Virus record (IMG/VR): IMGVR_UViG_3300006201_000003
Location: 64,095 to 128,094 of that record
From: a virus
Taxonomy: Duplodnaviria; Heunggongvirae; Uroviricota; Caudoviricetes
DNA: 64,000 nucleotides
Direction: 5' to 3' (one strand)
Shown here: positions 23,445-38,400 of the stretch, piece after piece
Layout of the letters: every line of letters begins with the position of its first letter
Numbering within the stretch: the stretch's first letter is position 1
Program-made: the position numbers and the translations under genes
Notes under the pieces: model-generated
Database searches by the model: none
Told to the model about the DNA's origin: nothing
What the model saw: only the letters and a program-made list of their open reading frames with translations

Positions 23445-24383
23445 TTAGTGTGCGTGCAGGTCACAATCGTGCAAAATCATAACCTGCGACCAGATATCTT
23501 CACCAAGCAAATCCTTAAATTTTCTCTCAGTTTTGCTCGGATGATCTGACTTTTCCACAGCGAATGGTGCCATATGCCAGCGAATCAAAAGCGCAACCCT
23601 CAGCTGGTCATCCTTGGACAACAAATCAGCGGTGTGAGCAAAACTCTCATAGGCACCAACACGCTCGTGGTTGTAATAGTGGGCAATATCTGTGGGATTT
23701 CCCTTGCTGTCATGGAAAACCTTTGTAAACTCTTTTCCAATATCATGGAGTGCAACTGCTCGGCCAAGAGGAATATCGTTTGCCATATCAGAGTAGTTCT
23801 TGTCAAAATATTCATAGGCCGTCAACATATGCTGTCCAACCGTAAACTCATGGTGAGGGTTGTCGTGCTCCATACCAGCAAGGCGACTCAGCAGGAAGTT
23901 GATGTCGCCAATAAATGGGTCTACATTTTCGATCCAGATATCATCCCACCCCTCGGCTTTCATCGGAATGTCGATATTCTGATACATCCGATGAATTACA
24001 TTCTCAGGCACAGTGCGTTCACGATTGGCGTTATTCTCTACGCATTTAGAATACGGGGTTACCATAAAAACACAGACGGTTTTAAGGCCAGGAATATGCA
24101 GTCCTTTCACCTGTTGCAGAAAAACACGACGGCGCTTATAACTGATATTGGTAGCGTCATATACCACACTCAAGCCAATTTGCAAATCACGGATTACACG
24201 GTCGTGAAGAGTTTGAAACACCAATTCCTGCTGACTCTGATCATCCACATTGTTCAAAAGTTCCTCACGAATTGCGTCGCTGGAGTGGATGACCGCATGG
24301 GACAATTTGTTTTCCGCATACCAAGACTTTCCGCTTCCAGGAAGTCCAACCAGCATGAAGAAATATTGCGTTGACAGGTTCAA
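23445..24383 (-). CDS. Polynucleotide kinase (P-loop) fused to an HD-domain phosphohydrolase.
   Basis: 312 aa; Walker A GLPGSGKS; C-terminal HD motifs (LHDIGK ... HDCDLH). Confidence 0.75.
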   Translation of the reverse strand: MNLSTQYFFMLVGLPGSGKSWYAENKLSHAVIHSSDAIREELLNNVDDQSQQELVFQTLHDRVIRDLQIGLSVVYDATNISYKRRRVFLQQVKGLHIPGLKTVCVFMVTPYSKCVENNANRERTVPENVIHRMYQNIDIPMKAEGWDDIWIENVDPFIGDINFLLSRLAGMEHDNPHHEFTVGQHMLTAYEYFDKNYSDMANDIPLGRAVALHDIGKEFTKVFHDSKGNPTDIAHYYNHERVGAYESFAHTADLLSKDDQLRVALLIRWHMAPFAVEKSDHPSKTERKFKDLLGEDIWSQVMILHDCDLHAH

Positions 24384-24384
24384 A

Positions 24385-25185
24385 CTACTCTCCTCCTTGC
24401 AGTTCCATTAAGAAACATCGTTTAAGAATTTCTACTGTGGCCGTCTGCATCACTTCATTTGCGTGTTCGTTAATGCAAACAGGGGTTGTATCCATGTACT
24501 GCTGTTTATCAGCTTTCATAGAATCAACGGCTTCTTGCATAAGCCGACGCGCTTCTTCCAGAGAGTGACACCCACGTTTTACTTCTACAAGGTAATCGGC
24601 TTGTTTGCTAACCAAGCAATCGGAATATTTTTCGTCGGCCATGTAGCGTGTCATAAATTCACGCATCCGCAAAGCGTGATGGAGCTGCTTGGGATCGTAG
24701 CCAAACCGTTCAATCTTATCAATGGTTGCAGGATATGGATGCTCCATTGCTTTCTGTTTCTCTAATGCCATACCAAGAAGACAGCTCATCCCAGCATAAT
24801 TGTTATAGCGAGCAATGTCCTCTCTGGCGTCCCAAATAGGCTGGAACAAGTCGGCATAAATCGGATTGAGGATGTAATACGGAGTGAAAAGGATCTCGAC
24901 AAAATTCACATTCTGTTTGCGGATACACTCAAACATAAGCCTGATATCCTTAAAATCTACGTGTTCGTCATTCTCCATGATGTGAGTTGTGCTAACGGGT
25001 TTGTGGGTAAGTACAAAGTCGGAGAAACTGGGAAGCACGATTGCCTTTGTATCAATGTCGCTACTCTCATAGTCCAGGCCGTAGTTTTGAGAACCTTGTA
25101 AGAAAATTCCCAACCAATCCTGCCCAGATTCTCGTACAGCGTCCAAATGCTGCTGTAGCCGATTCATAATGCGGTCTTTATTCAT
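24385..25185 (-). CDS. Pol-beta superfamily nucleotidyltransferase (possible tRNA CCA-adding or minimal NTase).
   Basis: 266 aa; GSQNYG...SDIDT is the hG[GS]...DxD NTase signature. Confidence 0.6.
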   Translation of the reverse strand: MNKDRIMNRLQQHLDAVRESGQDWLGIFLQGSQNYGLDYESSDIDTKAIVLPSFSDFVLTHKPVSTTHIMENDEHVDFKDIRLMFECIRKQNVNFVEILFTPYYILNPIYADLFQPIWDAREDIARYNNYAGMSCLLGMALEKQKAMEHPYPATIDKIERFGYDPKQLHHALRMREFMTRYMADEKYSDCLVSKQADYLVEVKRGCHSLEEARRLMQEAVDSMKADKQQYMDTTPVCINEHANEVMQTATVEILKRCFLMELQGGE

Positions 25186-25504
25186 ATGGGCGCTCCTCCT
25201 TTCTCACACAATCTCTGAGAAGTCGTTGGTAAAGGGATGCGTCATAACTCTCCATATCGTCCCAGAACATCAAATGCTCTGAGGTGTATTCCTCTGTGAC
25301 ATCTCCACTCACATCATAAAGGCGTCCACCGATTTCCTGAACAAAGTGATTTTCCACAGGCTCGTACATCATATTGCCGCCAAACCGCTCTTGCAAAATG
25401 AAAGCAAACCAATAACAGCAGCCGTTAAGAAACACGTCCTTAGAGCCTTTGAAGTTCTGGATAAAGCCGAGAATTTCAGCTTTATCCATCGGTTGCCTCC
25501 ACAA
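25178..25504 (-). CDS. Hypothetical protein.
   Basis: 108-aa ORF overlapping both neighbours by a few nt, suggesting translational coupling. Confidence 0.5.
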   Translation of the reverse strand: MWRQPMDKAEILGFIQNFKGSKDVFLNGCCYWFAFILQERFGGNMMYEPVENHFVQEIGGRLYDVSGDVTEEYTSEHLMFWDDMESYDASLYQRLLRDCVRKEERPYE

Positions 25505-26921
25505 CCTCTTCCTGTGCCTCTTCCATATCAGGTGCAGCAGCGGTATCCTTAATCAATCCCTCAAGAGCCTTGAAAGAGAAATTTTTGTGCTTATAAGCAG
25601 CAAACTTTGGGCGATTGACAATGCGGCAAACAACACCTTCACGCACATGGGTTTTGCCTACGGGGTCAGGGCCGTCGTAGAAATCCTCAGCCAGCTTCTT
25701 TACATATTCGCCAGCATCCACCGCCTGGGGAGAACCCACATTATCAGGCAGTTGGAAGAGATCGGGAATGATTGTGCGGCAGAAGAGAGGTACACACTTG
25801 ACGCCCATCTGCTCACAGCGATAACGCATGAAGTCAGGCGAATACTCCACCACATCACCATCTTCGTTGGTCATAGTCATGCGGTAGACATAGAGATCGG
25901 ACTTCGGTACGGGGATAGAGGCCACTCCGCTCTCATCCATAACTGTTTTCTTTCCGGTTGGATCACAGCCATAACTGAAGAAAGTTGTTTTGCCGTACTG
26001 TTTGGTAAACTCCTTATCACCAATCTTGGCGTTGCTTCCAGGAGACATGATAGGTGTGCCATCGTCGGTGAAACCAACCACCTCGTAGTAGACCTCCTCA
26101 CCCTTGCGGAGTTTCCCTTCAAAGACCTTTGCGTGTTGCTCACGGAAAGAATTGCTTCCATAAAAGCCACCGTCGTAACCGTCAAGAACAACCCGCCTCG
26201 TACCAGTAACATATCCCCAGTCATAGATAGGCGTTCTCTTGATTCTGGCGCGGAGCCAATCAGGAGTTTTCTCGCTCTCAAACAGCCGCTTTTCCAAACC
26301 GTTTTTATATTGGTAGCCTTTGAGGATGGGAAGATAGCCGGTGCGCTGGCTGGTGCCGTGCATCTTCAGCGTAATCTCAACCAGATCGCCGTTATGGAAC
26401 GCAGACAAATTGTAGGCAAGCTGCTCTGTATCTGCGTGCTCCAAGAACAGAGGAGAGATTGGATCAGACTTCTTGCGGACACGGCTCCCGCCACGACCAC
26501 CACCAGCTGCTCGTTTGGCCTTTGGAATGTACTTCTCGCAAATTGTGACACCATTCAGCATTGTGATTGTGTCGCCCTCTTTGAGTTGTGTAGTGTCTGT
26601 AAAGCCATCCAGACAGCTAATAGGAAGAAACAAACCGTCACTCTTTTCTCCACGAAGTTTCAGGGCTTTGATGTTTCGCTTCTCAGGATCAAGATATCCA
26701 CCGGCAGGATCTCCGTTCTCATCCTTTCGCCGCAACAGGTCATTCTTTTGTGCAAACTCGACGCCAAGTTTTCCGTCTACCGGAAAGTAAACGCCAAGCT
26801 GGTTGGGGTCGGTGCCAAGATCCACGATTACCGTATTCCCGAAACACTCACCACACATCAGCCGATCAGCGTTGGTGTGCTTGCGCAGATTTTTAATTCT
26901 TGTAACATACGCACAGTACAT
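25482..26921 (-). CDS. ATP-dependent RNA ligase (Rnl2-like) with an N-terminal tRNA-binding OB domain.
   Basis: 479 aa; KHTNADRL resembles the tRNA_bind (Trbp111/EMAPII) HPNADKL motif; ligase motif I KMHGTS (cf. T4 Rnl2 KIHGTN), motif IV EGVV, motif V YKHK. Confidence 0.7.
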   Translation of the reverse strand: MYCAYVTRIKNLRKHTNADRLMCGECFGNTVIVDLGTDPNQLGVYFPVDGKLGVEFAQKNDLLRRKDENGDPAGGYLDPEKRNIKALKLRGEKSDGLFLPISCLDGFTDTTQLKEGDTITMLNGVTICEKYIPKAKRAAGGGRGGSRVRKKSDPISPLFLEHADTEQLAYNLSAFHNGDLVEITLKMHGTSQRTGYLPILKGYQYKNGLEKRLFESEKTPDWLRARIKRTPIYDWGYVTGTRRVVLDGYDGGFYGSNSFREQHAKVFEGKLRKGEEVYYEVVGFTDDGTPIMSPGSNAKIGDKEFTKQYGKTTFFSYGCDPTGKKTVMDESGVASIPVPKSDLYVYRMTMTNEDGDVVEYSPDFMRYRCEQMGVKCVPLFCRTIIPDLFQLPDNVGSPQAVDAGEYVKKLAEDFYDGPDPVGKTHVREGVVCRIVNRPKFAAYKHKNFSFKALEGLIKDTAAAPDMEEAQEEVVEATDG

Positions 26922-26982: not shown

Positions 26983-28110
26983 TCAATACATAGCCTTTAG
27001 CTTGTGCGCCACCTCTGCAATGGCCTGGGCCGTTTCCACCATTTCGTCTGCCGTGTTTTCATATCCCAACGAAATACGAACGGTTGATGCAACATCTTCA
27101 TCTGACAACCCAATTCCTTTCAGGACATGAGACAAACTTGCGTCCGATGCACTGCAAGCGGAACCAGCAGAAAGATAAATTTCTTTCTGATCCAGCAAAA
27201 GCAACAGAGCCTCGCTATTTACACTGGGAATGGTCAGACTGATAATGTTGTGTGTCCTTTTTTCAGCGGCGTTTTGCTTGTATTCTCCTGGCATCACCTT
27301 GTCCAGTTCTTTCAGCAAAACATATTCCTGCGTGTTCCACTTTTCGATTTGTCTGGGGAGCCGACTTGTGATGATTTCAGCGGCCTTACCAAGCCCCACG
27401 ATACCAGGAACATTATAGGTGCCGGCTCTTATACCGTGCTCCTGACCGCCTCCACTAATCAGAGATTCTTTCTGGACTCCGCTACGCACATAGAACACTC
27501 CGACACCAAACGGTGCGCCAAACTTGTGTCCGGACATGGAGAGGAAATCCACTCCGCACTTCTTCACGTCGATAGGTATATGGCCTGCCGCCTGCACAGC
27601 GTCTACATGAAGGAGTACGCTGTGCTTTTTACAAAGCTCTGCAATTTCCTCAACCGGATTGATTGTACCAATCTCATTGTTGATCCACATTACGGAAACC
27701 GCTTTGTGACAACAGAGATTTAACAGGCGGCTCAAATCTTCCAAATCCACGCTACCATCGGGCAAATTCTTTACATAGGACACCTCATGTGCCCAACTCT
27801 CAAGCGGATGCGTAACGGAATGATGCTCCAAGGGAGTTGTGATGACCCTCTCGCCAAGGATATGGCTGGCGAATGTGTTATTAGATTCTGTACCGCCTGA
27901 TGTAAAGAAAATTTCAGAGACATCGGCGTTAATCATTTTGGCAACCTTTTCACGAGCATCTTCAATGGCTCGAAAAGCGTTTACTCCTTGCGTGTGAATA
28001 CTGCTTGCGTTGCCAACATGATCTGGTTGGAACCAGGGAAGCATAGCCTCCAGAACCTCTGGAAACATAGGTGTCGTTGCTGCGTGGTCTAAGTAAATCA
28101 CGAATTGCAC
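26983..28110 (-). CDS. Class V aminotransferase / cysteine desulfurase (IscS/NifS-like).
   Basis: 375 aa; SGHKFGAPFGVG is the PLP-lysine motif SxHKxxGPxGxG. Confidence 0.8.
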   Translation of the reverse strand: MQFVIYLDHAATTPMFPEVLEAMLPWFQPDHVGNASSIHTQGVNAFRAIEDAREKVAKMINADVSEIFFTSGGTESNNTFASHILGERVITTPLEHHSVTHPLESWAHEVSYVKNLPDGSVDLEDLSRLLNLCCHKAVSVMWINNEIGTINPVEEIAELCKKHSVLLHVDAVQAAGHIPIDVKKCGVDFLSMSGHKFGAPFGVGVFYVRSGVQKESLISGGGQEHGIRAGTYNVPGIVGLGKAAEIITSRLPRQIEKWNTQEYVLLKELDKVMPGEYKQNAAEKRTHNIISLTIPSVNSEALLLLLDQKEIYLSAGSACSASDASLSHVLKGIGLSDEDVASTVRISLGYENTADEMVETAQAIAEVAHKLKAMY

Positions 28111-28192: not shown

Positions 28193-29803
28193 TTATTCAC
28201 CAACAACAGGGCGCAATGCGTCCTCAATGGGCTGATATCGCTCCGTGTTCAAAGTCTCAAGCAAGCACTCGTAGGGATCGAGCTTGCCGCTCATCACCAT
28301 CTTGGCGATATTGACAGAGAAGCCGCTGACCAGAGCAACGCCCATATCGTTCTCCTTGACAGGAATCGTCTCGCTACGGCTGGCAACATTCCAGAACACC
28401 AGACGAGGCATCTTGTATCCAGCCTGTTCGTACTTCCGCTTGATCTCGTCGAACAGTCTGGCGTTCGGTCTGCTTGTGTTGTACCCCCAGCGATCTCTGG
28501 ACGGCGCTCCACAGCTGGCGCAGGAGTCAAACTCCATGTCGGAAATGATAAGTACATTGGCGGGAAGTTCGCTCTGATCCATGTGCTTGGAGATTGCCGT
28601 GTTCAAGATGAGGTCAAAGACGGCCTCCACATTGGTGTTTGCTCCAGCGTGGCACTCATGGACGATTCTCAACCGCTCATAGAGGTTCTTGCCATTTGAC
28701 AAGTCAATCAGCTCTGGGCGATCAGAGAAAGTGATATACTGATCCTTGAACTGACCAGAAGAACGCTCGGCAAAATAGATTGCGAGTGCGTTCGCTACCT
28801 CCAAGGGGCGGGCCGTGCTACCAGGGAGCGTTACCCATGTCATGCTCCCGCTGTCGTCCTGGACAACAATCGTGTTGCCGCAACCCTGCACGGTATCCGG
28901 CAAGTTACTCCAAAGAGCCTCCAGCGTAGCATCTACACTGTTTGTACGGCGGTACTTGTTCACGATATCGTGAGGGAATAGCGTGCCGGCGTTAATCTTG
29001 GCGTCACCGCTCTCCACACGCTCCAAAAACTCACGCCGCCGCTCAGTGTCATGGCGGAGAAAAGCATCGTTGTAAATCAGGTTAGCACGGGAGGGGACAC
29101 GCTGATAGTCAATTCCATCCCACGTCTGAGAAGACATCTGCTGCTCAACCACGACCAGATAGCGGGACAAATCTGCCAGCGTGTGCTGGTAATCACGCTC
29201 CGTCATATTTAGACCACTCCGCAAAAGCTGCCCATATCTGCGGGTCTGCTTGGAAGATGTCTTACATCTGGGCATCCACTTTGCAAGCAAAGAGATAGGC
29301 TTCTTCTCCTTGTAGCCACGCATATCATCGTGGAGTTGAGTGCCTACCAACTCAATCACCTTGTCGGCCAACGGAGTATCCAGCAAACACCAGAGATCGT
29401 CCCAGCGGCCATACTCAGGCACCAGAGATAAAACTGGAGCGACATACTCAGGGAAGTCATTCGCCATCGGCACCATGCAGGTACGGAACAGCCGCCGCTC
29501 ACCAAGTCCACCACGCACATCGCGGGCGAAGAACAGCCACTTCATGGCCGTCACCTTATCCTCAAAGAACGCCTTGGTGAAACGCTTGGAGATATCATAC
29601 TCCGAAGCATTACGGAGAGATGCGACCGCAAAGTTGAGATCCAGTAGGGAACGACCCGTGGTACGGTAGCCAACTGCTCCATTTTCGGTTACGGATACAT
29701 TATCAGCTCCATTGACGAGCGTATCCTTGATACCATCCATAAAGTTACTCATTTTTCTCTTACCTCCTAATAAATTTTGAGATACCTGGAACACCTTAAC
29801 CAC
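28193..29803 (-). CDS. vWA-domain protein, possibly TROVE/Ro60-like (DUF2828-like).
   Basis: 536 aa; MIDAS motif VVQDDSGSMT in the C-terminal half. Size and layout resemble Ro60/TROVE-type proteins. The vWA call is firmer than the TROVE call. Confidence 0.45.
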   Translation of the reverse strand: MVKVFQVSQNLLGGKRKMSNFMDGIKDTLVNGADNVSVTENGAVGYRTTGRSLLDLNFAVASLRNASEYDISKRFTKAFFEDKVTAMKWLFFARDVRGGLGERRLFRTCMVPMANDFPEYVAPVLSLVPEYGRWDDLWCLLDTPLADKVIELVGTQLHDDMRGYKEKKPISLLAKWMPRCKTSSKQTRRYGQLLRSGLNMTERDYQHTLADLSRYLVVVEQQMSSQTWDGIDYQRVPSRANLIYNDAFLRHDTERRREFLERVESGDAKINAGTLFPHDIVNKYRRTNSVDATLEALWSNLPDTVQGCGNTIVVQDDSGSMTWVTLPGSTARPLEVANALAIYFAERSSGQFKDQYITFSDRPELIDLSNGKNLYERLRIVHECHAGANTNVEAVFDLILNTAISKHMDQSELPANVLIISDMEFDSCASCGAPSRDRWGYNTSRPNARLFDEIKRKYEQAGYKMPRLVFWNVASRSETIPVKENDMGVALVSGFSVNIAKMVMSGKLDPYECLLETLNTERYQPIEDALRPVVGE

Positions 29804-29905
29804 TTTTGCTGTACGTGTTCAGAGATGTGCCCGTCTCTCCGAGCTGTCACCATTTTATCGTTAAATAGGGTGGGAGGAAACGATGGTTTACGTTCCCCTA
29901 TATTG

Positions 29906-30023
29906 TACGGCAGGTAGGATTTGAACCTACGATTGGCGGTTTGGCTTTTTACCTTGCTGTTAGTGAAACTGTAACATTTCACATTTCATTGACCGCTGTG
30001 TTTAACCACTTCACCACTACCGC
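29906..30023 (-). ncRNA. tRNA-like RNA with ~45-nt insert in the anticodon loop (element 1).
   Basis: T arm GTAGG-TTCAAAT-CCTAC; a 7-bp acceptor pairs (with 2 GU); anticodon stem GCGGT/ACCGC flanks a 51-nt loop containing the hairpin GTGAAA...TTTCAC and the conserved TCACTAACAGCAAGGT. No encoded CCA. Confidence 0.5.
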
Positions 30024-30028
30024 ATAGA

Positions 30029-30143
30029 TGCCAGGGGTGGGACTCGAACCCACGACCACGGGATTAAAATTCCTTAAAACATTGCTGTGAGCGTTTCATA
30101 AGATACGCATTGATACGTGCTCTATCCACTGAGCTACCCTGAC
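30029..30143 (-). ncRNA. tRNA-like RNA with insert (element 2).
   Basis: Acceptor GTCAGGG/CCCTGGC, D arm GCTCAGTGGATAGAGC, T arm GTGGG-TTCGAGT-CCCAC; a ~40-nt extra segment carries the hairpin GCGT...ACGC plus TCACAGCAATG. No encoded CCA. Confidence 0.5.
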
Positions 30144-30356
30144 GTTTTGCTTGTCTTTCCAAGCTGTCACAACCCAGTTCAAGATATTTGGGCTGATTAT
30201 CTGGCGCTTGATTTCAGAACAGACATAAGCGTGCCCAAAGCCCTGCCCCTATCCGCTTCTCGGTGGGAACGGAATCCACTTGCGCCTTTTCGTCCGCAAC
30301 CACGCCGGCTTGTTTCTTAGCGACTCGAAAGGATACCGGAAAACAAAGGAGTCTGA

Positions 30357-30470
30357 TGCGGAGAATAGGACTCGAACCTACGACACATAGCCTCCATTTA
30401 ACCTTGCTGTTAGTGAGAACGAAATGTTCCACATTTTATACCATCGCTCTACCGACTGAGCTATCTCCGC
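30357..30470 (-). ncRNA. tRNA-like RNA with insert (element 3).
   Basis: Perfect 7-bp acceptor GCGGAGA/TCTCCGC, D arm GCTCAGTCGGTAGAGC, T arm GTAGG-TTCGAGT-CCTAT; anticodon stem ATGGT/GCTAT (GU pairs) around a 48-nt loop with the hairpin GTGGAAC...GTTCTCAC and CTCACTAACAGCAAGGT. Confidence 0.55.
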
Positions 30471-30475
30471 ATATT

Positions 30476-30525
30476 CGGGACGCATTGTTGTTTCTTAAAA
30501 TTTCAGAATGACTTGCTGTTAGCGT
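30476..30525 (-). repeat. Stem-loop element GGGACGC-[TAACAGCAAG...]-GCGTCCC immediately 5' of tRNA-like element 3, followed by GAATAT.
   Basis: 7-bp inverted repeat flanking a ~36-nt loop that begins with TAACAGCAA. A homologous element sits at 31130-31195. Confidence 0.6.
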
Positions 30526-30806
30526 CCCATAGTTTCATATTTCAAAGGAGCCAGTCAAATATATTTCTGTTTGGATGCGAACTTAGGGCTTGTCTCGTAC
30601 TTTATTCATTGCAGAGCCTCCTCAACTGCGTTCCGATTCTGCCGCACTCATGTGGGCGGATCACATTTTGAAACCTTGTGGGGCATCGCCCCCCCCCACT
30701 TGTTGCAACCGGTCTACATTTACAGATACAACTTCTTAAATGGTCTGGTCACGTGCTCTATTCATGGCACGTACCTCCTTCCTAAGAATCAGTATGGTGG
30801 CTATTA

Positions 30807-30923
30807 TGGGAACTGACGGAGTTGAACCGCCAAGGAAAAGATTTCAAGTCTTTTTTTATAATGAAGATTGCTGTATGTGTCCGCCACCCGCTACACAGAT
30901 TGGCCTGACCACCGGACGTTCCC
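30807..30923 (-). ncRNA. Possible fourth tRNA-like RNA with insert (element 5).
   Basis: T arm GGCGG-TTCAACT-CCGTC; acceptor 6/7 pairs (GGGAACG/AGTTCCC); an internal ACAGCAATC motif follows the hairpin TGTGT...ACACA. Length 117 nt like the others. The D arm is unclear. Confidence 0.3.
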
Positions 30924-31011
30924 ATGTTGCCGCACTTACACGGCAGTAGTGGTCTTTTCCCACCGTCAAGAAAGGGGTTTGCAATGTACGCAATGCCGCT
31001 CACCACACGGC

Positions 31012-31101
31012 TGGCGGAGTGGGTGGGACTCGAACCCACACACCCTTTCGGGCTACTGACGGTTTAGCAAACCGTTGTCTTACCATTAGACTTACCACTC
31101 C
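31012..31101 (-). tRNA. tRNA-Ser(GCU), type II with long variable arm, CCA encoded.
   Basis: Acceptor GGAGTGG/CCACTCC, anticodon arm ACGGT-TTGCTAA-ACCGT (anticodon GCT), long V arm, T arm GTGGG-TTCGAGT-CCCAC, and 3' GCCA. Confidence 0.85.
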
Positions 31102-31129
31102 ATATTCGGCGGTTGCTAACCGCCACGAG

Positions 31130-31195
31130 ACGCATTTTAACGTGATGAATTAAATGTTCATTGTTTTGTTAAAGTTGCTGTTAGCGTCTCAAACC
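31130..31195 (-). repeat. Stem-loop element GAGACGC-[TAACAGCAAC...]-GCGTCTC 5' of tRNA-Ser, followed by hairpin GGCGG-TTAGCAA-CCGCC and GAATAT.
   Basis: Same architecture as 30476-30525: conserved loop start TAACAGCAA, and GAATAT immediately before the tRNA 5' end. Confidence 0.6.
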
Positions 31196-31206
31196 AAATG
31201 GCTCTT

Positions 31207-31524
31207 TTATTCAGAAATTGAGCCGGAGTCCTCTGTACTTAGGAGCTTGGTGAAATTATTGATGATAGCCGCATTGCCCTGGCGCTGTTTGGACATAGCT
31301 TCTCGCGTCTTCGCCAGATCAGCCGCATAGGTGTCAATCTCTCCCATAGCGTCGTCAATCTGTTGATTGATAAGCTCCAGACGATTGATAGTGCGTGTCA
31401 CAAGCTCGACAGCATCATCCGCCTGCTGCGCAAGCCGATCAACCTCCTGCTGTTTCTCCCGCAAAATGTCATGGGATGCCGTATTGGTTTTCTTACTGTT
31501 GAACGCCATATCGTTCCTCCTCAA
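31207..31524 (-). CDS. Coiled-coil hypothetical protein.
   Basis: 105-aa ORF. Confidence 0.5.
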   Translation of the reverse strand: MRRNDMAFNSKKTNTASHDILREKQQEVDRLAQQADDAVELVTRTINRLELINQQIDDAMGEIDTYAADLAKTREAMSKQRQGNAAIINNFTKLLSTEDSGSISE

Positions 31525-32453
31525 TTCACACCTGGGATGGTGACAATGGAGCCAGAACCAGATACGGTAGGCATCTTACCATCCCACTGCTCATACTTAA
31601 TCTTCTCAATCAGCTCAGAAGTAAGGGAGGCGGCAATCACTCTGTTTGCCTCTGCCTCAGCTTCGGCAGCAATCCGCAACACCTCAGCATCTGCATTTGC
31701 CTTAACCAATGCTGTCTGCGCTTGAATCTCTGCGGCTTCCTTGTCCTTCTCCGCCTGGATCATGGCAACTTCCTTATCTTTGTTGGCCTGAATCTTAGCA
31801 GTCTGCGCCTCAATATTCGCAAGTTCAAGCTCCTGCTGAGCGGTTACTTTCTTTTGGATCGCCGCAGCAGTCTCAGCGTCCACAGAGATGTCGGTGAAGT
31901 TCACCGTGTCAATAATAATGCCATACTTGTCGAACTTCTCCTTGAGGTAAAGATCAAGCTCCGCATTGATAGTTGTACGCTGATCGCCAAAGATGTCCGT
32001 AACAGGATAGTTAGCACTGACCTCCTGAGTCCATGCGATAATCTTGGGCTTGATGAATGTGTCCTTGATCTCTTCGCCGGACTTTCCCTTGAATGTTACG
32101 AATGTTTCAGCCACTCGTGCCTCATCGAAACGATAGGAGAACTCCAAATTTACCCGAACCGTTTTGCCGTCAGAAGTAGGGATACTGAAGCTCTCATCGG
32201 TCTTGCTGTCGCCCTTTTCGTCAGAGGTCAGATAGCTTTGCTCAATACCGATTGAGTATGTCGTGACTTTCTTGGTAGGTGCGACCAGATGCCAACCTTG
32301 GGAAAGAACCTCACCGTCAACGCCGCCGTTCATGTTGTAGACGACGCCGACATACCCTGCCGGCACACGACTGGTACAGAACAGTGCCAAAATGATACTT
32401 CCAAAGATTGCGATTGCAAGGACGATTGCTCCGATGAAACCTTTTCTTCTCAT
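31521..32453 (-). CDS. SPFH/band-7 (prohibitin-like) membrane protein.
   Basis: The track ORF is 31521..32474; the likely ATG is 32453, after GGAGGT. N-terminal TM, SPFH-like core and a coiled-coil C-terminal repeat (EAQTAKIQANKDKE). Confidence 0.7.
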   Translation of the reverse strand: MRRKGFIGAIVLAIAIFGSIILALFCTSRVPAGYVGVVYNMNGGVDGEVLSQGWHLVAPTKKVTTYSIGIEQSYLTSDEKGDSKTDESFSIPTSDGKTVRVNLEFSYRFDEARVAETFVTFKGKSGEEIKDTFIKPKIIAWTQEVSANYPVTDIFGDQRTTINAELDLYLKEKFDKYGIIIDTVNFTDISVDAETAAAIQKKVTAQQELELANIEAQTAKIQANKDKEVAMIQAEKDKEAAEIQAQTALVKANADAEVLRIAAEAEAEANRVIAASLTSELIEKIKYEQWDGKMPTVSGSGSIVTIPGVN

Positions 32454-32470
32454 TGTGTATTTTACCTCCG

Positions 32471-32638
32471 TCAATGTTTATTTGCTGTGTCTTCATCGCT
32501 TGGGTCTTCCTCGTCCATTGCGTCCTTTGCATCCTTGATTAGCCGTCCAACAAACTTGCCGAGCGGTTTGAATGCGAAAGATAGCAGCACCCACAGCACA
32601 GCCGCAAACACAAAGACTAAGAAAATGAATACTGGCAA
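32471..32638 (-). CDS. Small membrane protein (~55 aa) upstream of the SPFH gene.
   Basis: Manual ORF LPVFIFLVFVFAAVLWVLLSFAFKPLGKFVGRLIKDAKDAMDEEDPSDEDTANKH with a TTG start; the preceding C8/G8 tract (32645-32652) could serve as a G-rich SD. Below the track's 60-aa cutoff. Confidence 0.4.
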   Translation of the reverse strand: MPVFIFLVFVFAAVLWVLLSFAFKPLGKFVGRLIKDAKDAMDEEDPSDEDTANKH

Positions 32639-35456: not shown

Positions 35457-38400
35457 TCAGTTAATTGTCTGCTCTCCCCATGAGATATGGAAGTTTCCGT
35501 CTTTGTCCATATCACGAGACATAAGTAATCCCATCAAATCATAGTCAACACCAAAACGTGTGTATATCTCATCCAGGTCAACATCCTCCCCTTTCATAAA
35601 CAGATTCAATTTCTCTTTTGCTAACACCATTTGCATCTGATTTGACTCAATACTTCCAGAATAGGTTACAAAGTAGATGTCTTTCCAATCCGTAGAGGTA
35701 AATCGGACAAATCTCATATAGAATTGACTCATCCGTGCGTTATTGAAGTGCAGTTCAGGTATGATAACCTTGTTCACAAACTCGAAGTTGACAGAGGACG
35801 GGAGACACTGTTGAGTACAGAGCAAAATCCCGTTTCTGCTCTCTTTTAACGTCTTCTTCAGTTTCCGCCGTCCGGCTAATGTGGTAGTCGATCCTGTCAC
35901 CACAAACAGTTTTCGATCTGGAAAACGATTACGAATTGCGTCCGCATACGCCTCTACAACTACCTTGTGACGCACACCAACAACGGCCACCTCATTAGGC
36001 CAGCCAGCCAACATATCACAGACTTTACGAATTTTCACAGGTTCCAGATCGCTGTCATATTCATCTACTGTGTTTGGAGCGGCAGAAATACGCAACAGTA
36101 AAGTAATCTGCTGAATCAACGCCATCATGCTATCCTTGCGACTATTCCCAGTCAGGGCAAAGTACCGCTGCCGAATAGAGTAGAACTCTTCAACAGCTTT
36201 TTTGTAGACTTCCCGTTCCATAGGAGAGAATGAGACGGTAGTTTGGTGTATACGTCTAATTTCCCGTCCTGTGATCTCAGCAAATGTCCGTGTAATAACG
36301 GAGTAGGACAAGAGTTTGTTCAGTGCATCCGCATTGAATATATCCTGATTTTTCTTACCCACTCCAAAAACTGTGATCTTCTCCGGCAAATGAGACTCCG
36401 AAAATAGTGTATATCCAGGCTTATAAGCGGGAATCGGGCATCCGAAATAAGGGTTGTTGCTAAAATTCAGAAATTCCTCACCATTCGAGTCTTTTTCATA
36501 CCAATAAAGATTCTCAGCCCATGAAAGCATATTGTGAGAATTGTTATAGAGCAGTTCCAGTTGTGGAGCACTCTCCGCAATGTTATTTCTTGTGATGGTG
36601 CCAGTCATTTCCAGCTTAAACTGCACACGACGGAAACAGGACAACATAGCCTTTGTACGCTTGCTGTTAGGGTTCGTGATTTCATCACTCTCATCAAATA
36701 CAAGACACACCTTTTGGTTACGCTGCTTGATATGGCGCTTGATCTGTTTCTGATACTTGGAAACCATATTAAGGGTAATAATAACAAACTCTCCATCCTG
36801 CACAGCGTCCAGATCAGAAAGGCGGCGAATCATACGATAGGGAATAGGGCGTCCATCAATACTGTAATTAGGTAGCACCAAATCCCAGTTATTCTTGATA
36901 GAGATGGCCGTGGATACTACCCAAACATTTCTTGCTCCCTGATAAATCATCCGATATCGTCCAGTGATGATGCCGGCCAGCGTTTTGCCGCCACCTTGCT
37001 CCCATTGTAGCAGATGGTAGTGTTTCTGAAGAATGAGGTTCAAATCGTGCTTCTGTGTATCATTTGGGCAAATCAATTCTTCATTTTCAGCGTCGTAGAT
37101 AGCGAACTCTTCCAAATAGCGGGAAATGTCCGCCCGTTCTATCATTTCAGAGAATGGCATTGTCTCCCGTTCATAGTCACGCTGCTTGCGGCGAAGCATT
37201 CGCACATACTGTCCGTACTCCTGTGGTGGGTTCCCAGTTTCCTCCATGCTGACTACAATATCTGTGATAGGAACTGGCTGTTTCATCGTATCCGACATGG
37301 AGCGACGAGCTTTGGAGCTGTATCCCTTGTAAACAAGGTTATAATCCTGCTTGACCAACCGCACAATGTCTTGGCTTGGCTTCTTGTTCTGAGAGCGGAT
37401 CACACGCCGCAGATAGGCCAGCACTTTTGCCTCTGTAATGCGCACCTTTGCCCATTCCTCAGCTTTCATATCCTTTGGCTGTTCCTGGTGCTGAAATTTG
37501 TAAAGGTACTCTTGGCACTTAGCGTATTTCTCTACCAGTTTAGGATTTTTCCTAATATGGTACAACATCTTCCGAACATTGTACTCAAAAGTGTTAGAAC
37601 TTCCACCCAAAGAGGCCAGCTTGATACGGGCGCTGTTCTGTTGTTTCAACATTTTTGCAGGCGCTATGATTTTTTCCTTAGTATAGTCCAACAGATCGAC
37701 GGCGTTATCCAAGTTGTTCATCTGGGCGTCACAGGCCAACCGATAAGAGCCGCTGGTTTCCTCACCATCCATTCGTTTCTGCCAAAACATCACTTTTGTT
37801 AAATAATTGGTTACACCAAGATGTTTGAATGCACCAGCCATAATTTCAATTTGTCCCAAAAAAGAAAAGTGCTTCTCCATTTCTACGATTTTCTGCTTAT
37901 CCATGTAGTCATCGGATAGGAACTGTGCTGGGACAACAATCGCCATAATACCCATAGGCTTCAACAACTCTGCCGCTTTCATGCAATAGTACATTTGACT
38001 GATATACTCAGTCCCATCTACATCCCATTTTAGGTTGAATGGAGGATTACCAACCACATAGTCGAAGCGCATATCGGGCTGGTAGAAACGGATATCCCGA
38101 TGTTCCAAGTTTGCGGTGGGGTAGAGGTAATGCGCAACCTTATGAGATTTGATATCCAGCTCGCAACCGTAGAAGTTGGCCTCCAGCGGCACGAAGTTAC
38201 AGAAGTTTGCCATTCCAGAAGTAAGGTCGGCCACCGTTTCATCCAGTGCGGGAGAAATGGCTTCCATGATGAACTGGCATAGGGCAGGCGGCGTAAAGAA
38301 CTGTCCGTTCTCAATCTCTTTCTTGGCCTCCGAAAACTCATGGTAGTTTGCGAAGTCAGAGCGCTTCAAGCCGTGTAGTCCACCGTCACCAGTGTAGGCG

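What the first reader, a model, noticed from the sequence alone, without database searches (positions are those of the whole stretch)
29906..31195. Array of four ~115-nt tRNA-like genes with a conserved ~45-nt module at the anticodon-loop position, beside one canonical tRNA-Ser.
tRNA-Ser(GCU) at 31012-31101 folds canonically and encodes CCA. Four other elements (29906-30023, 30029-30143, 30357-30470, 30807-30923) have good acceptor stems, D arms and T arms (GTTCGAGTC / GTTCAAATC) but are all 114-118 nt long and lack encoded CCA.

In each, the anticodon stem can still be paired (for example ATGGT/GCTAT, GCGGT/ACCGC), but it encloses a 45-50-nt loop. That loop holds a short hairpin whose stem differs between copies yet stays paired (GTGGAAC/GTTCTCAC versus GTGAAA/TTTCAC versus GCGT/ACGC). 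The hairpin is followed by a conserved (TA)ACAGCAA(G)G. The same TAACAGCAA begins the loops of two free-standing stem-loops (30476-30525, 31130-31195) that sit immediately 5' of tRNA genes and are followed by GAATAT.

The inserts are far too short for bacterial group I tRNA introns. They could be (a) short tRNA introns removed by an endonuclease and rejoined by the adjacent kinase/phosphatase/ligase genes, (b) YrlA-like tRNA-mimic Y RNAs partnering with the adjacent TROVE/vWA-like protein, or (c) decoys for host anticodon nucleases. I cannot decide between these from sequence alone.
Basis: seen in the sequence. Interest (0 to 1): 0.88.

Follow-up and report, generated by a model that had tools for sequence, protein, structure and literature searches.

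The report
Phage tRNA-shaped partners of Ro60-like protein
The four over-long "tRNA genes" are most likely not intron-bearing tRNAs but tRNA-shaped partner RNAs (analogues of Y RNAs) of the Ro60-like protein encoded next door, and they belong to a large RNA family, absent from Rfam, that sits beside that protein in hundreds of phages, including Felix O1 and Listeria phage P100.

Summary
On the minus strand, three 114-118-nt elements pass the Rfam tRNA model with a 48-55-nt insert. A fourth is a looser tRNA-like RNA. All four inserts carry a covarying hairpin followed by YA-ACAGCAA.

The same module (helix P1 plus NN-ACAGCAA) also closes three free-standing stem-loops in the window. Across related phages it is about 10-fold enriched, strand-specifically, next to the adjacent DUF2828 gene. 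The predicted fold of that gene's protein matches TROVE/Ro60 structures.

In relatives the module encloses anticodon-arm mimics, or whole circularly permuted tRNA-like domains with a closed acceptor stem. Those permuted forms have the YrlA (bacterial Y RNA) topology and give sub-threshold hits to the Rfam YrlA model. Window element A, permuted in silico, aligns collinearly with one of them (89 of 118 identical).

Several results argue against spliced, decoding tRNAs:
- Anticodon triplets vary freely on conserved bodies.
- The Gly-like type lacks U33.
- No insert-less alleles exist among the loci held.
- The RNA ligase cluster is not a constant neighbour.

Best reading: these are Y-RNA-like tRNA mimics of a divergent phage Ro60, circularly permuted relative to YrlA. 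This is a new variant of a known kind. Binding to the protein is inferred, not shown.

The parts
29906..30023 (-). Element A. A tRNA-shaped RNA with a tRNA-Gly-like body. Its order is: acceptor stem, D arm, GCGGT, P1 hairpin (29963-29982), TA-ACAGCAA (29954-29960), the remnant GCCAA, ACCGC, T arm, acceptor stem. No CCA is encoded and there is no U33.
   Evidence: Rfam tRNA 47.2 bits with a 50-nt insert. Orthologues keep GCC/UCC plus AA directly before the 3' strand of the anticodon stem. After in-silico circular permutation it aligns collinearly with the natural permuted element L164 3470-3600 (89 of 118 identical).
30029..30143 (-). Element B. A tRNA-shaped RNA with a Lys/Asn-like body. The module (P1 hairpin 30091-30108, TC-ACAGCAA 30082-30088) interrupts the 5' strand of the anticodon stem (CG | module | GGA). 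An intact loop, GGA-ATTTTAA-TCC-CG (30061-30073), follows it.
   Evidence: Rfam tRNA 43.4 bits. All 12 distinct orthologous bodies carry the insert. The triplet varies between UUU, GUU, GCU, UGU and UGA on the same body.
30357..30470 (-). Element C. A tRNA-shaped RNA. Its order is: ATGGT, P1 hairpin (30413-30432, 7 bp with a bulge), TA-ACAGCAA (30404-30410), ATGGAG, GCTAT. Relatives have the loop A/TTGGGGA (Pro GGG-like); the window copy is one base shorter.
   Evidence: Rfam tRNA 49.8 bits; comparison with relatives.
30807..30923 (-). Element D. A looser tRNA-like RNA with an acceptor stem (6 of 7 pairs) and a T arm but no canonical D arm. It has a P1 hairpin with a G-rich loop (30876-30897), T-ACAGCAA (30868-30874), and an intact anticodon-like arm AAAGA-CTTGAAA-TCTTT (30837-30853).
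   Evidence: Partial Rfam tRNA match of 18.9 bits. Compensatory changes in the acceptor stem and T stem against L084. The triplet is hypervariable among orthologues: UGA, GCA, GUA, GGU, GGA, UAG.
31127..31190 (-). Free-standing module T1a: GAGACGC-TA-ACAGCAA, cargo, GCGTCTC. The cargo contains an anticodon-arm-like hairpin TGAA-CATTTAA-TTCA. It is followed by hairpin 31108-31124 and GAATAT, then tRNA-Ser.
   Evidence: Sequence. Fold -22.1 kcal/mol, z = -2.97. The same architecture occurs in 368 distinct modules elsewhere.
30477..30528 (-). Free-standing module T1b: GGGACGC-TA-ACAGCAA, 29-nt cargo, GCGTCCC. It is followed by GAATAT and element C.
   Evidence: An orthologue in L084 keeps the P1 pairing.
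29789..29820 (-). Minimal module T1c: GAACAC-GT-ACAGCAA, 11-nt cargo, GTGTTC. It lies 36 nt upstream of the start codon of the Ro60-like gene.
   Evidence: An equivalent module just upstream of the gene is present in most related loci.
31012..31101 (-). Canonical tRNA-Ser(GCU) with encoded CCA. It is part of the same array.
   Evidence: ARAGORN; Rfam 59 bits.
28193..29752 (-). Ro60-like protein gene (Pfam DUF2828 + DUF7788, PHROG 850 'RNA-binding protein'). The likely true start is the ATG at 29752, giving 519 aa. This is the presumed protein partner of the RNAs.
   Evidence: Pfam hits 1e-44 and 2e-34. PHROG hit 5e-138. AlphaFold2 model with pLDDT 78; top Foldseek hits are TROVE/Ro60 structures 9kop, 9l5y and 2nvo over the full length, E 2e-8 to 5e-6.
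23445..26921 (-). RNA-repair genes downstream in this lineage: RNA ligase (25482-26921), RlaP-like nucleotidyltransferase (24385-25185) and polynucleotide-kinase-like P-loop protein (23445-24383).
   Evidence: Pfam and PHROG hits. Adjacent to the Ro-like gene in only 12-14 of 73 related loci.
31521..32474 (-). SPFH/Band-7 protein gene upstream of the array. The same Band-7, tRNA, Ro-like order is seen in Mycobacterium phage Lumos.
   Evidence: Pfam 7e-27.

Best explanation
The array encodes small structured RNAs that partner the adjacent Ro60-like (DUF2828) protein. They are functional analogues of Y RNAs.

The shared module is a helix (P1) whose one strand is followed directly by a single-stranded NN-ACAGCAA. 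This plays the part that the terminal stem with its GNCGAA/CGAA motif plays in known Y RNAs: it is the protein-binding platform (inferred). The rest of each RNA is a tRNA-derived 'cargo'. The cargo can be a bare anticodon-arm mimic, a T-arm-like hairpin or a whole tRNA-like domain.

In relatives the tRNA-like domain is enclosed by P1, with the acceptor stem closed by a loop. That is the YrlA topology. In this window the same design is circularly permuted. The ends sit at the acceptor stem as in a real tRNA, so RNase P, RNase Z and the CCA-adding enzyme could process it (inferred). P1 is closed into a hairpin that sits in or beside the anticodon arm.

The RNAs are probably cut out of one long transcript together with tRNA-Ser, bind the Ro-like ring, and use their tRNA-like part to engage tRNA-binding factors. 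Candidates are host PNPase, as in known Ro/Y RNA complexes, the phage's own RNA-repair enzymes, or host anticodon nucleases. All of these steps are inferred.

They are not ordinary decoding tRNAs, and the inserts are not introns.
For: SHOWN: the protein partner.
- The DUF2828 model matches TROVE/Ro60 crystal structures over its full length.
- Homologues in mycobacteriophages are annotated 'Ro-like RNA binding protein'.

SHOWN: linkage of the module to the gene.
- In 73 phage loci chosen only by the protein, ACAGCAA occurs 407 times on the gene's strand and 39 times on the other (about 41 expected per strand). Copies are concentrated within about 2 kb of the gene. In 68 loci from bacterial genomes the counts are 193 and 29.
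- A scan using only the RNA pattern gave more than 120 loci. Of 42 modules with at least 2.5 kb on both sides, 24 had a DUF2828 gene in the stretch held. The gene was on the same strand in 70 of 70 cases.
- The motif also lies beside the gene in Felix O1, Listeria phage P100 and Mycobacterium phage Lumos.

SHOWN: RNA structure.
- The free base of P1 covaries in 126 of 126 pattern matches.
- An exact 6-mer partner for the arm preceding NN-ACAGCAA is found in 37% of cases against 2.5% for shuffled arms.
- The hairpin form covaries in 34 tRNA-embedded copies.

SHOWN: one design in several topologies.
- L164 2375-2510, L164 3470-3600, Lumos and Felix O1 carry P1-ACAGCAA enclosing T arm, closed acceptor stem and D arm.
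- These hit Rfam YrlA at 42.7, 27.7 and 39.3 bits, with E down to 1e-7.
- Window element A, rotated to open in P1, aligns with L164 3470-3600 at a score of 115-123. The unrotated sequence scores 45.5 and the median over all rotations is 80.

SHOWN: not ordinary tRNAs.
- ARAGORN finds none of the four without intron mode, and its intron mode gives incoherent isotypes.
- B-type and D-type bodies carry many different triplets, including Ser anticodons on bodies without a long variable arm.
- The A type has CA, CC, TT, CG, TC or GA at positions 32-33.

FROM LITERATURE.
- Y RNAs lie within 4 kb of Ro60 on the same strand. Each species has several, one with a tRNA-like domain and others that are simple hairpins. 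M. smegmatis YrlA is cut by RNase P and receives CCA (PMC4201824).
- A phage Ro60 binds two adjacent Y-like RNAs and host PNPase (PMC12135203).
- Ro60-like gp130 of the Felixounavirus Bas63 counters the Ppl defence system. Its authors guessed that some adjacent 'tRNAs' are Y RNAs (PMC11482910).
Against: - No binding or expression data exist for these RNAs. The link to the protein is genomic only.
- The known Ro-binding motif (GNCGAAN0-1G / CGAA) is absent.
- The window elements give no YrlA hit even at E <= 10, and the permuted relatives stay below YrlA's gathering score of 69 bits.
- Of the 42 modules with ample flanks, 18 have no DUF2828 gene in the stretch held, so linkage is strong but not absolute.
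- Bas63 gp130 works when moved alone into T7 (PMC11482910), so the protein does not strictly need these RNAs for that phenotype.
- B-type and C-type elements would give perfectly canonical anticodon arms if the module were excised. A-type and C-type keep a constant anticodon identity (Gly, Pro) across relatives. Both facts fit tRNA function after processing.
Confidence: 0.6

Rival explanations
1. Unusual tRNA genes. The module marks the exon junction of intron-containing genes (this window) and circularly permuted genes (relatives). A phage or host endonuclease would recognise P1/ACAGCAA, and the phage kinase and RNA ligase would join the halves to give functional tRNAs. This would parallel the bulge-helix-bulge system of archaea and the permuted tRNA genes of the red alga Cyanidioschyzon.
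For: - Complete tRNA bodies with covarying acceptor, D and T stems.
- Removing the module from the B type restores a perfect 5-bp stem plus 7-nt loop. Removing it from C-type relatives restores a canonical Pro-like loop.
- A-type and C-type keep Gly and Pro anticodons across relatives.
- RNA ligase, RlaP-like and kinase genes lie just downstream in this lineage.
- The same junction element in 'intron' and 'permuted' forms is the pattern seen with BHB motifs (my own knowledge of that literature).
- Unexplained short introns have been reported in Lak megaphage tRNAs (bioRxiv 10.1101/356790).
Against: - The A type lacks U33 after any simple excision.
- ARAGORN's intron mode gives contradictory solutions: Glu-CUC, stop-UUA and His-AUG.
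- The module is common where there is nothing to splice: minimal stem-loops, anticodon-arm-only cargo, and tandem copies in front of the gene.
- Some permuted forms have only a 5-bp closed acceptor stem (L164 3470-3600).
- Ser anticodons sit on bodies without a long variable arm, and triplets change freely on constant bodies.
- No insert-less allele of any body was found.
- Ligase and kinase genes are adjacent in only 12-14 of 73 related loci, and no splicing endonuclease is recognisable nearby.
Confidence: 0.13
2. Anticodon-arm decoys or sensors. The RNAs exist mainly to display mimics of host anticodon stem-loops. These mimics would soak up, or report the activity of, host tRNA-cleaving defence nucleases. 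The P1/ACAGCAA module (with or without the Ro-like protein) would serve only to stabilise or deliver them. This can coexist with the main explanation as its functional content.
For: - 45% of 368 free-standing modules carry a hairpin with a 7-nt YU-NNN-R-N loop, against 13% of shuffled cargo. The commonest loop is CTTTTAA, which looks like Lys-UUU. Others are CTTGAAA, CTGTTAA and CTGCAAA.
- The triplet is hypervariable between close relatives while the scaffold is conserved. L137 and L138 differ by one base, UGU against UGA.
- The neighbourhood encodes RNA-repair enzymes.
- A Felixounavirus Ro60-like protein is a defence counter (PMC11482910).
- tRNA-Lys, Tyr, Asn, Ser and Cys are known targets of anticodon nucleases and VapC/MazF toxins (my own knowledge).
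Against: - No experimental link exists.
- Many modules carry no anticodon-like hairpin (55%).
- The A type shows only a half loop.
- The defence countered by gp130 (Ppl) is proposed to be a DNase, not a tRNase, and gp130 acts without the RNAs in T7 (PMC11482910).
Confidence: 0.2
3. Cis-acting processing or regulatory signals. On this reading the P1/ACAGCAA stem-loops are spacer structures that guide host RNases in cutting the polycistronic tRNA transcript, or they are a 5'-UTR operator that controls translation of the Ro-like gene. They would not be independent RNAs.
For: - Modules sit between tRNAs and are often followed by GAATAT and a tRNA 5' end.
- One copy lies 36 nt upstream of the gene's start codon.
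- No sigma-70-like promoter or terminator lies inside the array.
Against: - The same 7-nt motif is kept in phages of Actinobacteria, Firmicutes and Proteobacteria, whose processing RNases differ. This points to a phage-encoded partner.
- Modules also lie downstream of the gene.
- Modules are embedded inside tRNA-like bodies, where a spacer role makes no sense.
Confidence: 0.07

Closest known systems
YrlA / bacterial and phage Y RNAs (Rfam RF02553; Chen et al. 2014, PMC4201824)
   Same: - Encoded within a few kb of a Ro60-type gene, on the same strand.
- Several per genome: one kind with a tRNA-like domain (T arm, D arm, acceptor-like stem) and others that are simple hairpins.
- A terminal helix next to a conserved single-stranded motif on its 5' strand.
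- Relatives of the window elements have exactly the YrlA order (stem, T arm, closed acceptor stem, D arm, stem) and hit the YrlA model at E down to about 1e-7.
   Different: - The motif is NN-ACAGCAA, not GNCGAAN0-1G.
- The protein is a DUF2828-type Ro60 relative with no Pfam TROVE hit at E <= 0.01.
- All matches are below Rfam's gathering score, and the window elements give none.
- The window's four RNAs are circularly permuted relative to YrlA: open acceptor end, protein-binding helix closed into a hairpin.
- Many members keep a canonical 7-nt anticodon-like loop, which YrlA lacks.
Thermus phage phiLo Ro60 with Yrl1/Yrl2 (PMC12135203; PDB 9KOP, 9L5Y)
   Same: - A phage-encoded Ro60 ring with two small RNAs encoded just upstream.
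- A 5'-3' stem flanking an internal loop that holds the conserved motif.
- This protein is the best structural match to the window protein's model.
   Different: - That system uses the CGAA motif and a recognisable TROVE protein.
- Binding to the protein and to host PNPase was shown there by experiment. Nothing is shown for the ACAGCAA family.
Bas63 (Felixounavirus) gp130, a Ro60-like counter of the Ppl defence system (PMC11482910)
   Same: - A Ro60-like protein encoded directly upstream of a tRNA array, as for the DUF2828 gene of Felix O1.
- The authors speculated that some of the neighbouring 'tRNAs' are Y RNAs.
   Different: - No RNA was identified in that work. Here the candidate RNAs and their motif are defined: Felix O1 copies at L313 5222, 5389, 5843 and 5930.
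- I inferred that gp130 is the orthologue of the DUF2828 gene from genus and synteny. I did not check it by sequence.
Intron-containing, split and circularly permuted tRNA genes joined at a bulge-helix-bulge motif (archaea; Cyanidioschyzon merolae). This comparison rests on my own knowledge, not on a search here.
   Same: One junction element is shared by 'interrupted' and 'permuted' versions of the same tRNA-like body. Insert positions vary (26/27, 28/29, 31/32, 32/33).
   Different: - No BHB geometry is evident and no splicing endonuclease gene was found.
- Products would often be non-canonical.
- The element also occurs without any tRNA halves.
'Enigmatic' short introns in Lak megaphage tRNAs (bioRxiv 10.1101/356790)
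   Same: Over-long phage tRNA-like genes that bacterial tRNA finders miss.
   Different: - Lak inserts show presence/absence polymorphism between genomes. That polymorphism defined their excision points.
- No such polymorphism exists here.
- No link to a Ro-like gene or to an ACAGCAA motif was reported for the Lak inserts. I did not compare their sequences.

Membership tests
Y RNA (functional class: RNA partner of a Ro60-type protein) | Encoded close to (within about 4 kb of) a Ro60 orthologue and on the same strand | tested here: met
   All seven module copies in the window lie within 1.5 kb upstream of the Ro60-like gene, on the same strand. Family-wide, the strand counts are 407 against 39, and the gene is on the same strand in 70 of 70 cases. 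The protein's Ro60 likeness rests on a fold match.
Y RNA (functional class: RNA partner of a Ro60-type protein) | Helix formed by the RNA's two ends, next to an internal loop carrying a conserved motif on the 5' strand | tested here: met
   Free-standing modules: the P1 free base covaries in 126 of 126 matches, and ACAGCAA starts 2 nt after the 5' strand. In the window's four long elements the helix is present but closed into a hairpin, which is a circular permutation.
Y RNA (functional class: RNA partner of a Ro60-type protein) | Conserved Ro-binding sequence GNCGAAN0-1G (bacteria) or GGUCCGA (animals) | tested here: not met
   The invariant sequence is ACAGCAA. Any relation to GNCGAA is speculative.
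Y RNA (functional class: RNA partner of a Ro60-type protein) | Physical binding to the Ro60 protein, and stability that depends on it | not testable with these tools
   Needs RIP/CLIP, EMSA, or northern blots in a mutant lacking the protein.
YrlA (Rfam RF02553) | Score at or above the family's gathering threshold (69 bits) | tested here: not met
   The window gives no YrlA hit at E <= 10. Permuted relatives score 42.7, 27.7 and 39.3 bits.
YrlA (Rfam RF02553) | tRNA-like domain in the order T arm, closed acceptor-like stem-loop, D arm, flanked by the terminal stem | tested here: inconclusive
   Met in relatives (L164, Lumos, Felix O1). The window elements have the same parts in circularly permuted order.
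Ro60 / TROVE protein family (for the neighbouring gene) | Sequence match to Pfam TROVE (PF05731) | tested here: not met
   Only DUF2828 and DUF7788 are reported at E <= 0.01. phmmer against PDB sequences finds no Ro60.
Ro60 / TROVE protein family (for the neighbouring gene) | Fold: alpha-helical repeat ring followed by a von Willebrand A domain | tested here: met
   The four best Foldseek hits are Ro60/TROVE structures aligned over about 506 columns (E 2e-8 to 5e-6, TM 0.40-0.49). The following hits are vWA domains on the C-terminal part. Model pLDDT is 78.
Ordinary decoding tRNA gene | Cloverleaf with a 5-bp anticodon stem and a 7-nt loop (U33, purine 37), detectable by standard tRNA finders | tested here: not met
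   ARAGORN finds only tRNA-Ser. The Rfam model matches A, B and C only by skipping 50-55 nt. The A type has no U33, and D has no D arm.
Ordinary decoding tRNA gene | Anticodon and body (identity elements) evolve together | tested here: not met
   B-type body carries UUU, GUU, GCU, UGU and UGA. D-type body carries UGA, GCA, GUA, GGU, GGA and UAG. Ser anticodons occur without a long variable arm.
tRNA gene with an intron (group I, or protein-spliced at 37/38 or a BHB motif) | Group I intron core, or an insert at a position that gives a canonical mature anticodon arm in every copy | tested here: not met
   No intron family in Rfam at E <= 10. The inserts are 48-55 nt. ARAGORN's intron mode is incoherent. 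The B type would be canonical after excision but the A type would not. I did not search for BHB geometry with a dedicated tool.
tRNA gene with an intron (group I, or protein-spliced at 37/38 or a BHB motif) | Insert-less alleles or spliced products exist | tested here: inconclusive
   No insert-less allele among 564 canonical-length tRNAs in the loci held. The best match of the two halves is 88% identical and comes from an unrelated phage. Spliced RNA cannot be tested here.

The most novel reading that the evidence does not exclude
Phages of many bacterial phyla carry a ribonucleoprotein counter-defence system. A Ro60-like ring protein would be loaded with a fast-evolving repertoire of small RNAs that display mimics of host anticodon arms, or of whole tRNAs, on a common P1/ACAGCAA handle. 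The particle would act as a programmable decoy, sensor or repair platform against host tRNA-cleaving immune nucleases. The 'anticodon' of each RNA would set which nuclease, or which damaged tRNA, it engages. In this lineage it would work with the adjacent ligase, kinase and nucleotidyltransferase.
Probability: 0.2. Interest if true: 0.88.

Novelty: new variant of a known kind. Interest (0 to 1): 0.72.

Why it matters
Ro60 and Y RNAs are conserved from bacteria to humans, but their roles in bacteria and phages are still poorly understood.

- **Concrete RNA candidates.** This work gives a sequence-and-structure signature (a helix plus NN-ACAGCAA) for the RNA partners of a very large, divergent branch of Ro60-like proteins. 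A single search returned more than 8000 protein clusters, and 711 cultured-phage records carry a homologue.
- **Tractable phages.** The signature is present in Felix O1-type coliphages and Salmonella phages, Listeria phage P100 and mycobacteriophages. In one of these groups the protein has just been shown to defeat a bacterial defence system, and its RNA partners were only guessed at.
- **Natural circular permutation.** The same tRNA mimic exists with tRNA-like ends and with Y-RNA-like ends. This should help dissect which part of a Y RNA does what.
- **Annotation.** These loci should not be recorded as tRNA genes with introns or as tRNA pseudogenes.
- **Possible arms race.** The freely changing anticodon-like loops raise the testable idea that these RNAs take part in the contest over tRNA cleavage.

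Tried and rejected
- **Known RNA families.** Rfam 15 was searched at gathering and at E <= 10 on the window and on 20 related loci. Nothing matches the module. Only tRNA and sub-threshold YrlA appear.
- **Canonical or loop introns.** ARAGORN's intron mode gave Glu-CUC, stop-UUA and His-AUG with different intron positions. I rejected these as artefacts.
- **Promoter reading.** ACAGCAA, or its complement TTGCTGT (which resembles a MotA box or -35 element), could have been a promoter. I rejected this because the motif is on the transcribed strand inside structured RNAs, P1 covaries, the motif is confined to this region of the 64-kb window, and no sigma-70-like sites are predicted.
- **Small self-cleaving ribozyme.** There is no Rfam hit, and only about 7 invariant bases with free-form cargo. 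I judged this unlikely.
- **Mobile mini-element or tRNA pseudogenes disrupted by insertion.** I rejected this because both the tRNA stems and the insert hairpin covary under selection, and no empty sites exist.
- **First permissive helix test.** Allowing 7 of 7 pairs with G-U within 200 nt had a 36% false-positive rate. I replaced it with stricter tests.
- **A 14-mer scan of viral contigs.** This returned mostly chance hits. Only three loci were true relatives.
- **Phage K long non-coding RNAs near tRNAs.** I checked one of these for expression evidence. It is not next to a DUF2828 gene in the stretch examined.
- **Sequence search of the protein against PDB.** This found nothing useful.
- **Literature.** Searches on DUF2828 gave only unrelated plant papers. 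The Annual Review on bacterial Ro60 could not be read.

Full report
**1. What is in the sequence**

All elements lie on the minus strand.
- ARAGORN finds one gene in the whole 64-kb window: tRNA-Ser(GCU) at 31012-31101.
- The Rfam tRNA model also matches 30357-30470 (element C, 49.8 bits), 29906-30023 (A, 47.2 bits) and 30029-30143 (B, 43.4 bits). Each match covers the full model and skips 48-55 nt at the anticodon arm.
- The fourth element (D, 30807-30923) gives only a partial 18.9-bit match. It has an acceptor stem with 6 of 7 pairs, a T arm and an intact anticodon-like arm, but no canonical D arm.
- Only tRNA-Ser encodes CCA.
- Every insert contains a short hairpin followed by YA-ACAGCAA. 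The pattern YWMACAGCAA occurs 7 times in the window against 1.6 expected, and 5 of those lie within 29.9-31.2 kb.
- The same motif opens the loop of stem-loops at 31127-31190 and 30477-30528.

D is a weaker tRNA mimic than described. In B and D the insert lies in the 5' strand of the anticodon stem (B) or upstream of that stem (D), not inside the loop, so a complete 7-nt loop follows it.

**2. The neighbouring protein is Ro60-like**

- ORF 28193-29803 probably starts at the ATG at 29752, giving 519 aa, the same length as its homologues.
- It matches Pfam DUF2828 and DUF7788 and PHROG 850, 'RNA-binding protein'.
- It gives no sequence hit to solved structures.
- An AlphaFold2 model built on 34 homologues (pLDDT 78) has Ro60/TROVE structures as its four best Foldseek matches over the full length. 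These are 9kop and 9l5y (Thermus phage phiLo Ro60) and 2nvo (Deinococcus Rsr), with E from 2e-8 to 5e-6. The following hits are vWA domains.
- Homologues occur in 711 cultured-phage records. In mycobacteriophages they are annotated 'Ro-like RNA binding protein'.

Downstream in this lineage lie a class-V aminotransferase, an RNA ligase, an RlaP-like nucleotidyltransferase, a kinase and a PAPS-reductase-like protein. Upstream lies an SPFH/Band-7 protein.

**3. The module belongs to a large family tied to that gene**

- A syntenic relative (L084) has orthologues of all four elements, with compensatory changes in the stems.
- Using only the protein as bait, I collected 73 phage loci with 36-98% protein identity. 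ACAGCAA occurs 407 times on the gene's strand and 39 times on the opposite strand, where about 41 are expected per strand. Most copies lie within 2 kb of the gene.
- In 68 loci from bacterial genomes, mostly Oscillospiraceae, Lachnospiraceae and other Clostridia, the counts are 193 and 29.
- Conversely, a scan using only an RNA pattern (AAAGACNCNNACAGCAA, 25-55 nt, GTCTTG) returned more than 120 viral loci, where about 6 would be expected by chance by my estimate.
- In all 126 matches the unconstrained base of the 5' arm is complementary to the unconstrained base of the 3' arm. This establishes a closing helix, which I call P1.
- Of 42 modules with at least 2.5 kb on both sides, 24 have a DUF2828 gene in the stretch held. 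The gene is on the same strand in 70 of 70 cases, usually 10-1000 nt downstream and sometimes just upstream.
- The RNA ligase, RlaP and kinase genes are adjacent in only 12-14 of the 73 loci. The Ro-like gene is therefore the only constant neighbour.
- The module is also present in classical phages. Felix O1 has four copies between the tRNAs that follow the gene. Listeria phage P100 has three tandem copies between a TTGACA promoter-like site and gp165. Mycobacterium phage Lumos has three copies just after its Ro-like gene.
- No Rfam family matches the module.

**4. One design, three topologies**

*Free-standing modules.* These have the form 5'-P1a, NN-ACAGCAA, cargo, P1b-3', with a median length of about 65 nt. 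I found 368 distinct examples in the loci held.
- 45% of cargos contain a hairpin with a 7-nt YU-NNN-R-N loop, against 13% for shuffled cargo.
- The commonest loops are CTTTTAA (which looks like Lys-UUU), T-loop-like TTCRANT, CTTGAAA, CTGTTAA and CTGCAAA.

*Permuted tRNA-like cargo.* In some relatives the cargo is a whole tRNA-like domain in permuted order: variable region, T arm, acceptor stem closed by a 6-nt loop, D arm.
- Examples are L164 2375-2510 and 3470-3600, the middle module of Lumos, and the fourth module of Felix O1.
- This is the published topology of YrlA, the tRNA-like bacterial Y RNA (PMC4201824).
- The Rfam YrlA model matches these elements over its full length at 42.7, 27.7 and 39.3 bits (E down to about 1e-7). 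These scores are below the gathering score of 69. The agreement lies in the tRNA-like core and not in the outer stem.

*The window's four long elements.* These are the circular permutation of that design: 5' half of the tRNA, P1b, loop, P1a, NN-ACAGCAA, 3' half of the tRNA.
- This explains why the strand that precedes NN-ACAGCAA pairs downstream in free-standing modules and upstream in the tRNA-embedded ones.
- Direct test: element A, rotated so that it opens within P1, aligns collinearly with L164 3470-3600. There are 89 identical positions out of 118 and a score of 115-123. The unrotated sequence scores 45.5 and the median over all rotations is 80.
- In 34 tRNA-embedded copies, RNAalifold recovers the acceptor, D and T stems and the P1 hairpin. 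95.9% of cells are paired against about 44% with slid partners, 0 of 500 shuffles reach the observed values, and every P1 pair shows double changes.

**5. Why not introns in decoding tRNAs**

- ARAGORN's intron mode gives incoherent solutions.
- The Gly-like A type keeps GCC/UCC plus AA next to the 3' strand. After any simple excision its positions 32-33 would be CA, CC, TT, CG, TC or GA, so U33 is missing.
- B-type bodies, which are nearly identical across phages, carry UUU, GUU, GCU, UGU or UGA. D-type bodies carry UGA, GCA, GUA, GGU, GGA or UAG. Ser anticodons occur on bodies without the long variable arm that seryl-tRNA synthetase needs. The synthetase rule is from my own knowledge.
- Two copies have 8-nt loops.
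- All 12 distinct B-type bodies carry the insert. No body of any type has an insert-less counterpart among 564 canonical-length tRNAs in the loci held. This contrasts with the Lak megaphage introns, which are polymorphic (bioRxiv 10.1101/356790).
- The module is abundant where there are no exons at all.

Some facts still favour processing into tRNAs. B-type and C-type relatives would have perfectly canonical anticodon arms without the module. A-type and C-type keep their Gly and Pro identities. The permuted-plus-interrupted pattern recalls the bulge-helix-bulge systems of archaea and Cyanidioschyzon. I keep this rival at about 0.13.

**6. Most likely mechanism**

Shown:
- A Ro60-fold protein gene is next to the array.
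- A covarying helix-plus-motif module is tied to that gene.
- tRNA-derived cargo occurs in three interconvertible topologies.
- The relatives resemble YrlA.

Inferred by analogy with characterised Ro/Y systems:
- The protein binds P1/ACAGCAA, as Ro60 binds the terminal stem and the 5'-strand motif of Y RNAs.
- The RNAs are released from a long transcript by tRNA-processing enzymes. No promoter-like or terminator-like sites lie inside the array. M. smegmatis YrlA is cut by RNase P and receives CCA (PMC4201824).
- The tRNA-like part recruits tRNA-binding or RNA-binding partners. A phage Ro60 with its two Y-like RNAs binds host PNPase (PMC12135203).

A recent preprint showed that the Ro60-like gp130 of the Felixounavirus Bas63 counters the Ppl defence system. 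Its authors guessed that some adjacent 'tRNAs' might be Y RNAs (PMC11482910). The modules found here in Felix O1 are concrete candidates. gp130 also works alone in T7, so the RNAs are not needed for that phenotype.

The hypervariable anticodon-like loops suggest, but do not show, a role as decoys, sensors or adaptors in conflicts over tRNA cleavage.

**7. Comparison and novelty**

By function and architecture this is a Y-RNA/YrlA-type system. By strict membership it is not YrlA:
- The window elements give no hit, and relatives are below threshold.
- The GNCGAA motif is absent.
- The protein does not match Pfam TROVE.

I found no description of the ACAGCAA module, of its link to DUF2828 proteins or of the permuted topology, either in Rfam 15 or in the literature I could search. 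I rate it a new variant of a known kind, with interest 0.72. It is widespread, it is present in tractable model phages, and it bears directly on an open question: what do phage and bacterial Ro60 particles do? The central binding claim remains untested.

Noticed in passing
window 30736-30765 (-) and 30583-30609 (-): Two tiny ORFs lie inside the RNA array, between elements D and C. They encode MNRARDQTI* and MNKVRDKP*, and each has a strong GGAGG ribosome-binding site 6-8 nt upstream. MN(K/R)xRDKP is kept in relatives L120, L123, L128, L131 and L132. They could be leader or sensor peptides rich in Asn, Lys, Arg and Asp codons.
   Followed up: partly
window 30147-30168 (-) and 29827-29848 (-); L084 about 7930-7955 and 9420-9445: A second recurring hairpin has the form (G)ACAG-[CTYGG-ARAGA-CRRG]-CAA and lies just upstream of the tRNA-like elements. 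It reads like the ACAGCAA motif with a small hairpin inserted between its G and C.
   Followed up: no
window 30144-30356 (-): An intergenic stretch of about 210 nt between elements C and B has no module and no convincing ORF. By eye it looks largely conserved in L084 (9228-9440); I did not compute an identity. It may be another structured RNA.
   Followed up: no
L314 (Listeria phage P100) 1968-2519: A near-threshold match to ROOL RNA (86 bits against a gathering score of 99.1, E 3e-16) sits in the same tRNA array, about 1 kb upstream of the three ACAGCAA modules and the Ro-like gene gp165. This hints that large ornate RNAs, tRNAs and Y-like RNAs share one genomic neighbourhood.
   Followed up: no
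window 26983-28110 (-) and 22053-22904 (-): A class-V aminotransferase (cysteine-desulfurase-like, Pfam 7e-80) lies directly after the Ro-like gene. A PAPS-reductase/PP-loop protein with a weak HNH-like stretch flanks the RNA-repair genes. Together they could be a sulfur-transfer pair for tRNA or DNA thiolation. The desulfurase is adjacent in 19 of 73 related loci.
   Followed up: partly
L131 3462-3580 and L169 3484-3610: Two B-type relatives have 8-nt anticodon-like loops (CTTTTTAA and CTTTGTAA). The close pair L137 and L138 differ by a single base in the triplet (UGU against UGA).
   Followed up: no
window 30357-30470 (-), loop region about 30381-30386: The window's element C has ATGGAG where relatives have A/TTGGGGA. 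This is a one-base shorter loop that leaves no canonical 7-nt loop with U33.
   Followed up: partly
window 36661-36670 (-): One further exact CTAACAGCAA lies inside the 1027-aa methyltransferase/helicase ORF (35457-38540). It is probably a chance occurrence, but I did not check it for a P1 helix.
   Followed up: no
L315 (Mycobacterium phage Lumos) 1268-4949; window 28193-32474: The gene order Band-7/SPFH protein, tRNA(s), Ro-like protein is shared between a mycobacteriophage and this Clostridia-associated phage. An SPFH gene is present within 4 kb in 18 of 73 related loci.
   Followed up: partly
window 30925-30948 (+): The only terminator-like site in the region is on the opposite (plus) strand, between element D and tRNA-Ser. 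On the minus strand the same bases form the leader hairpin TGCCG...CGGCA just before element D.
   Followed up: no
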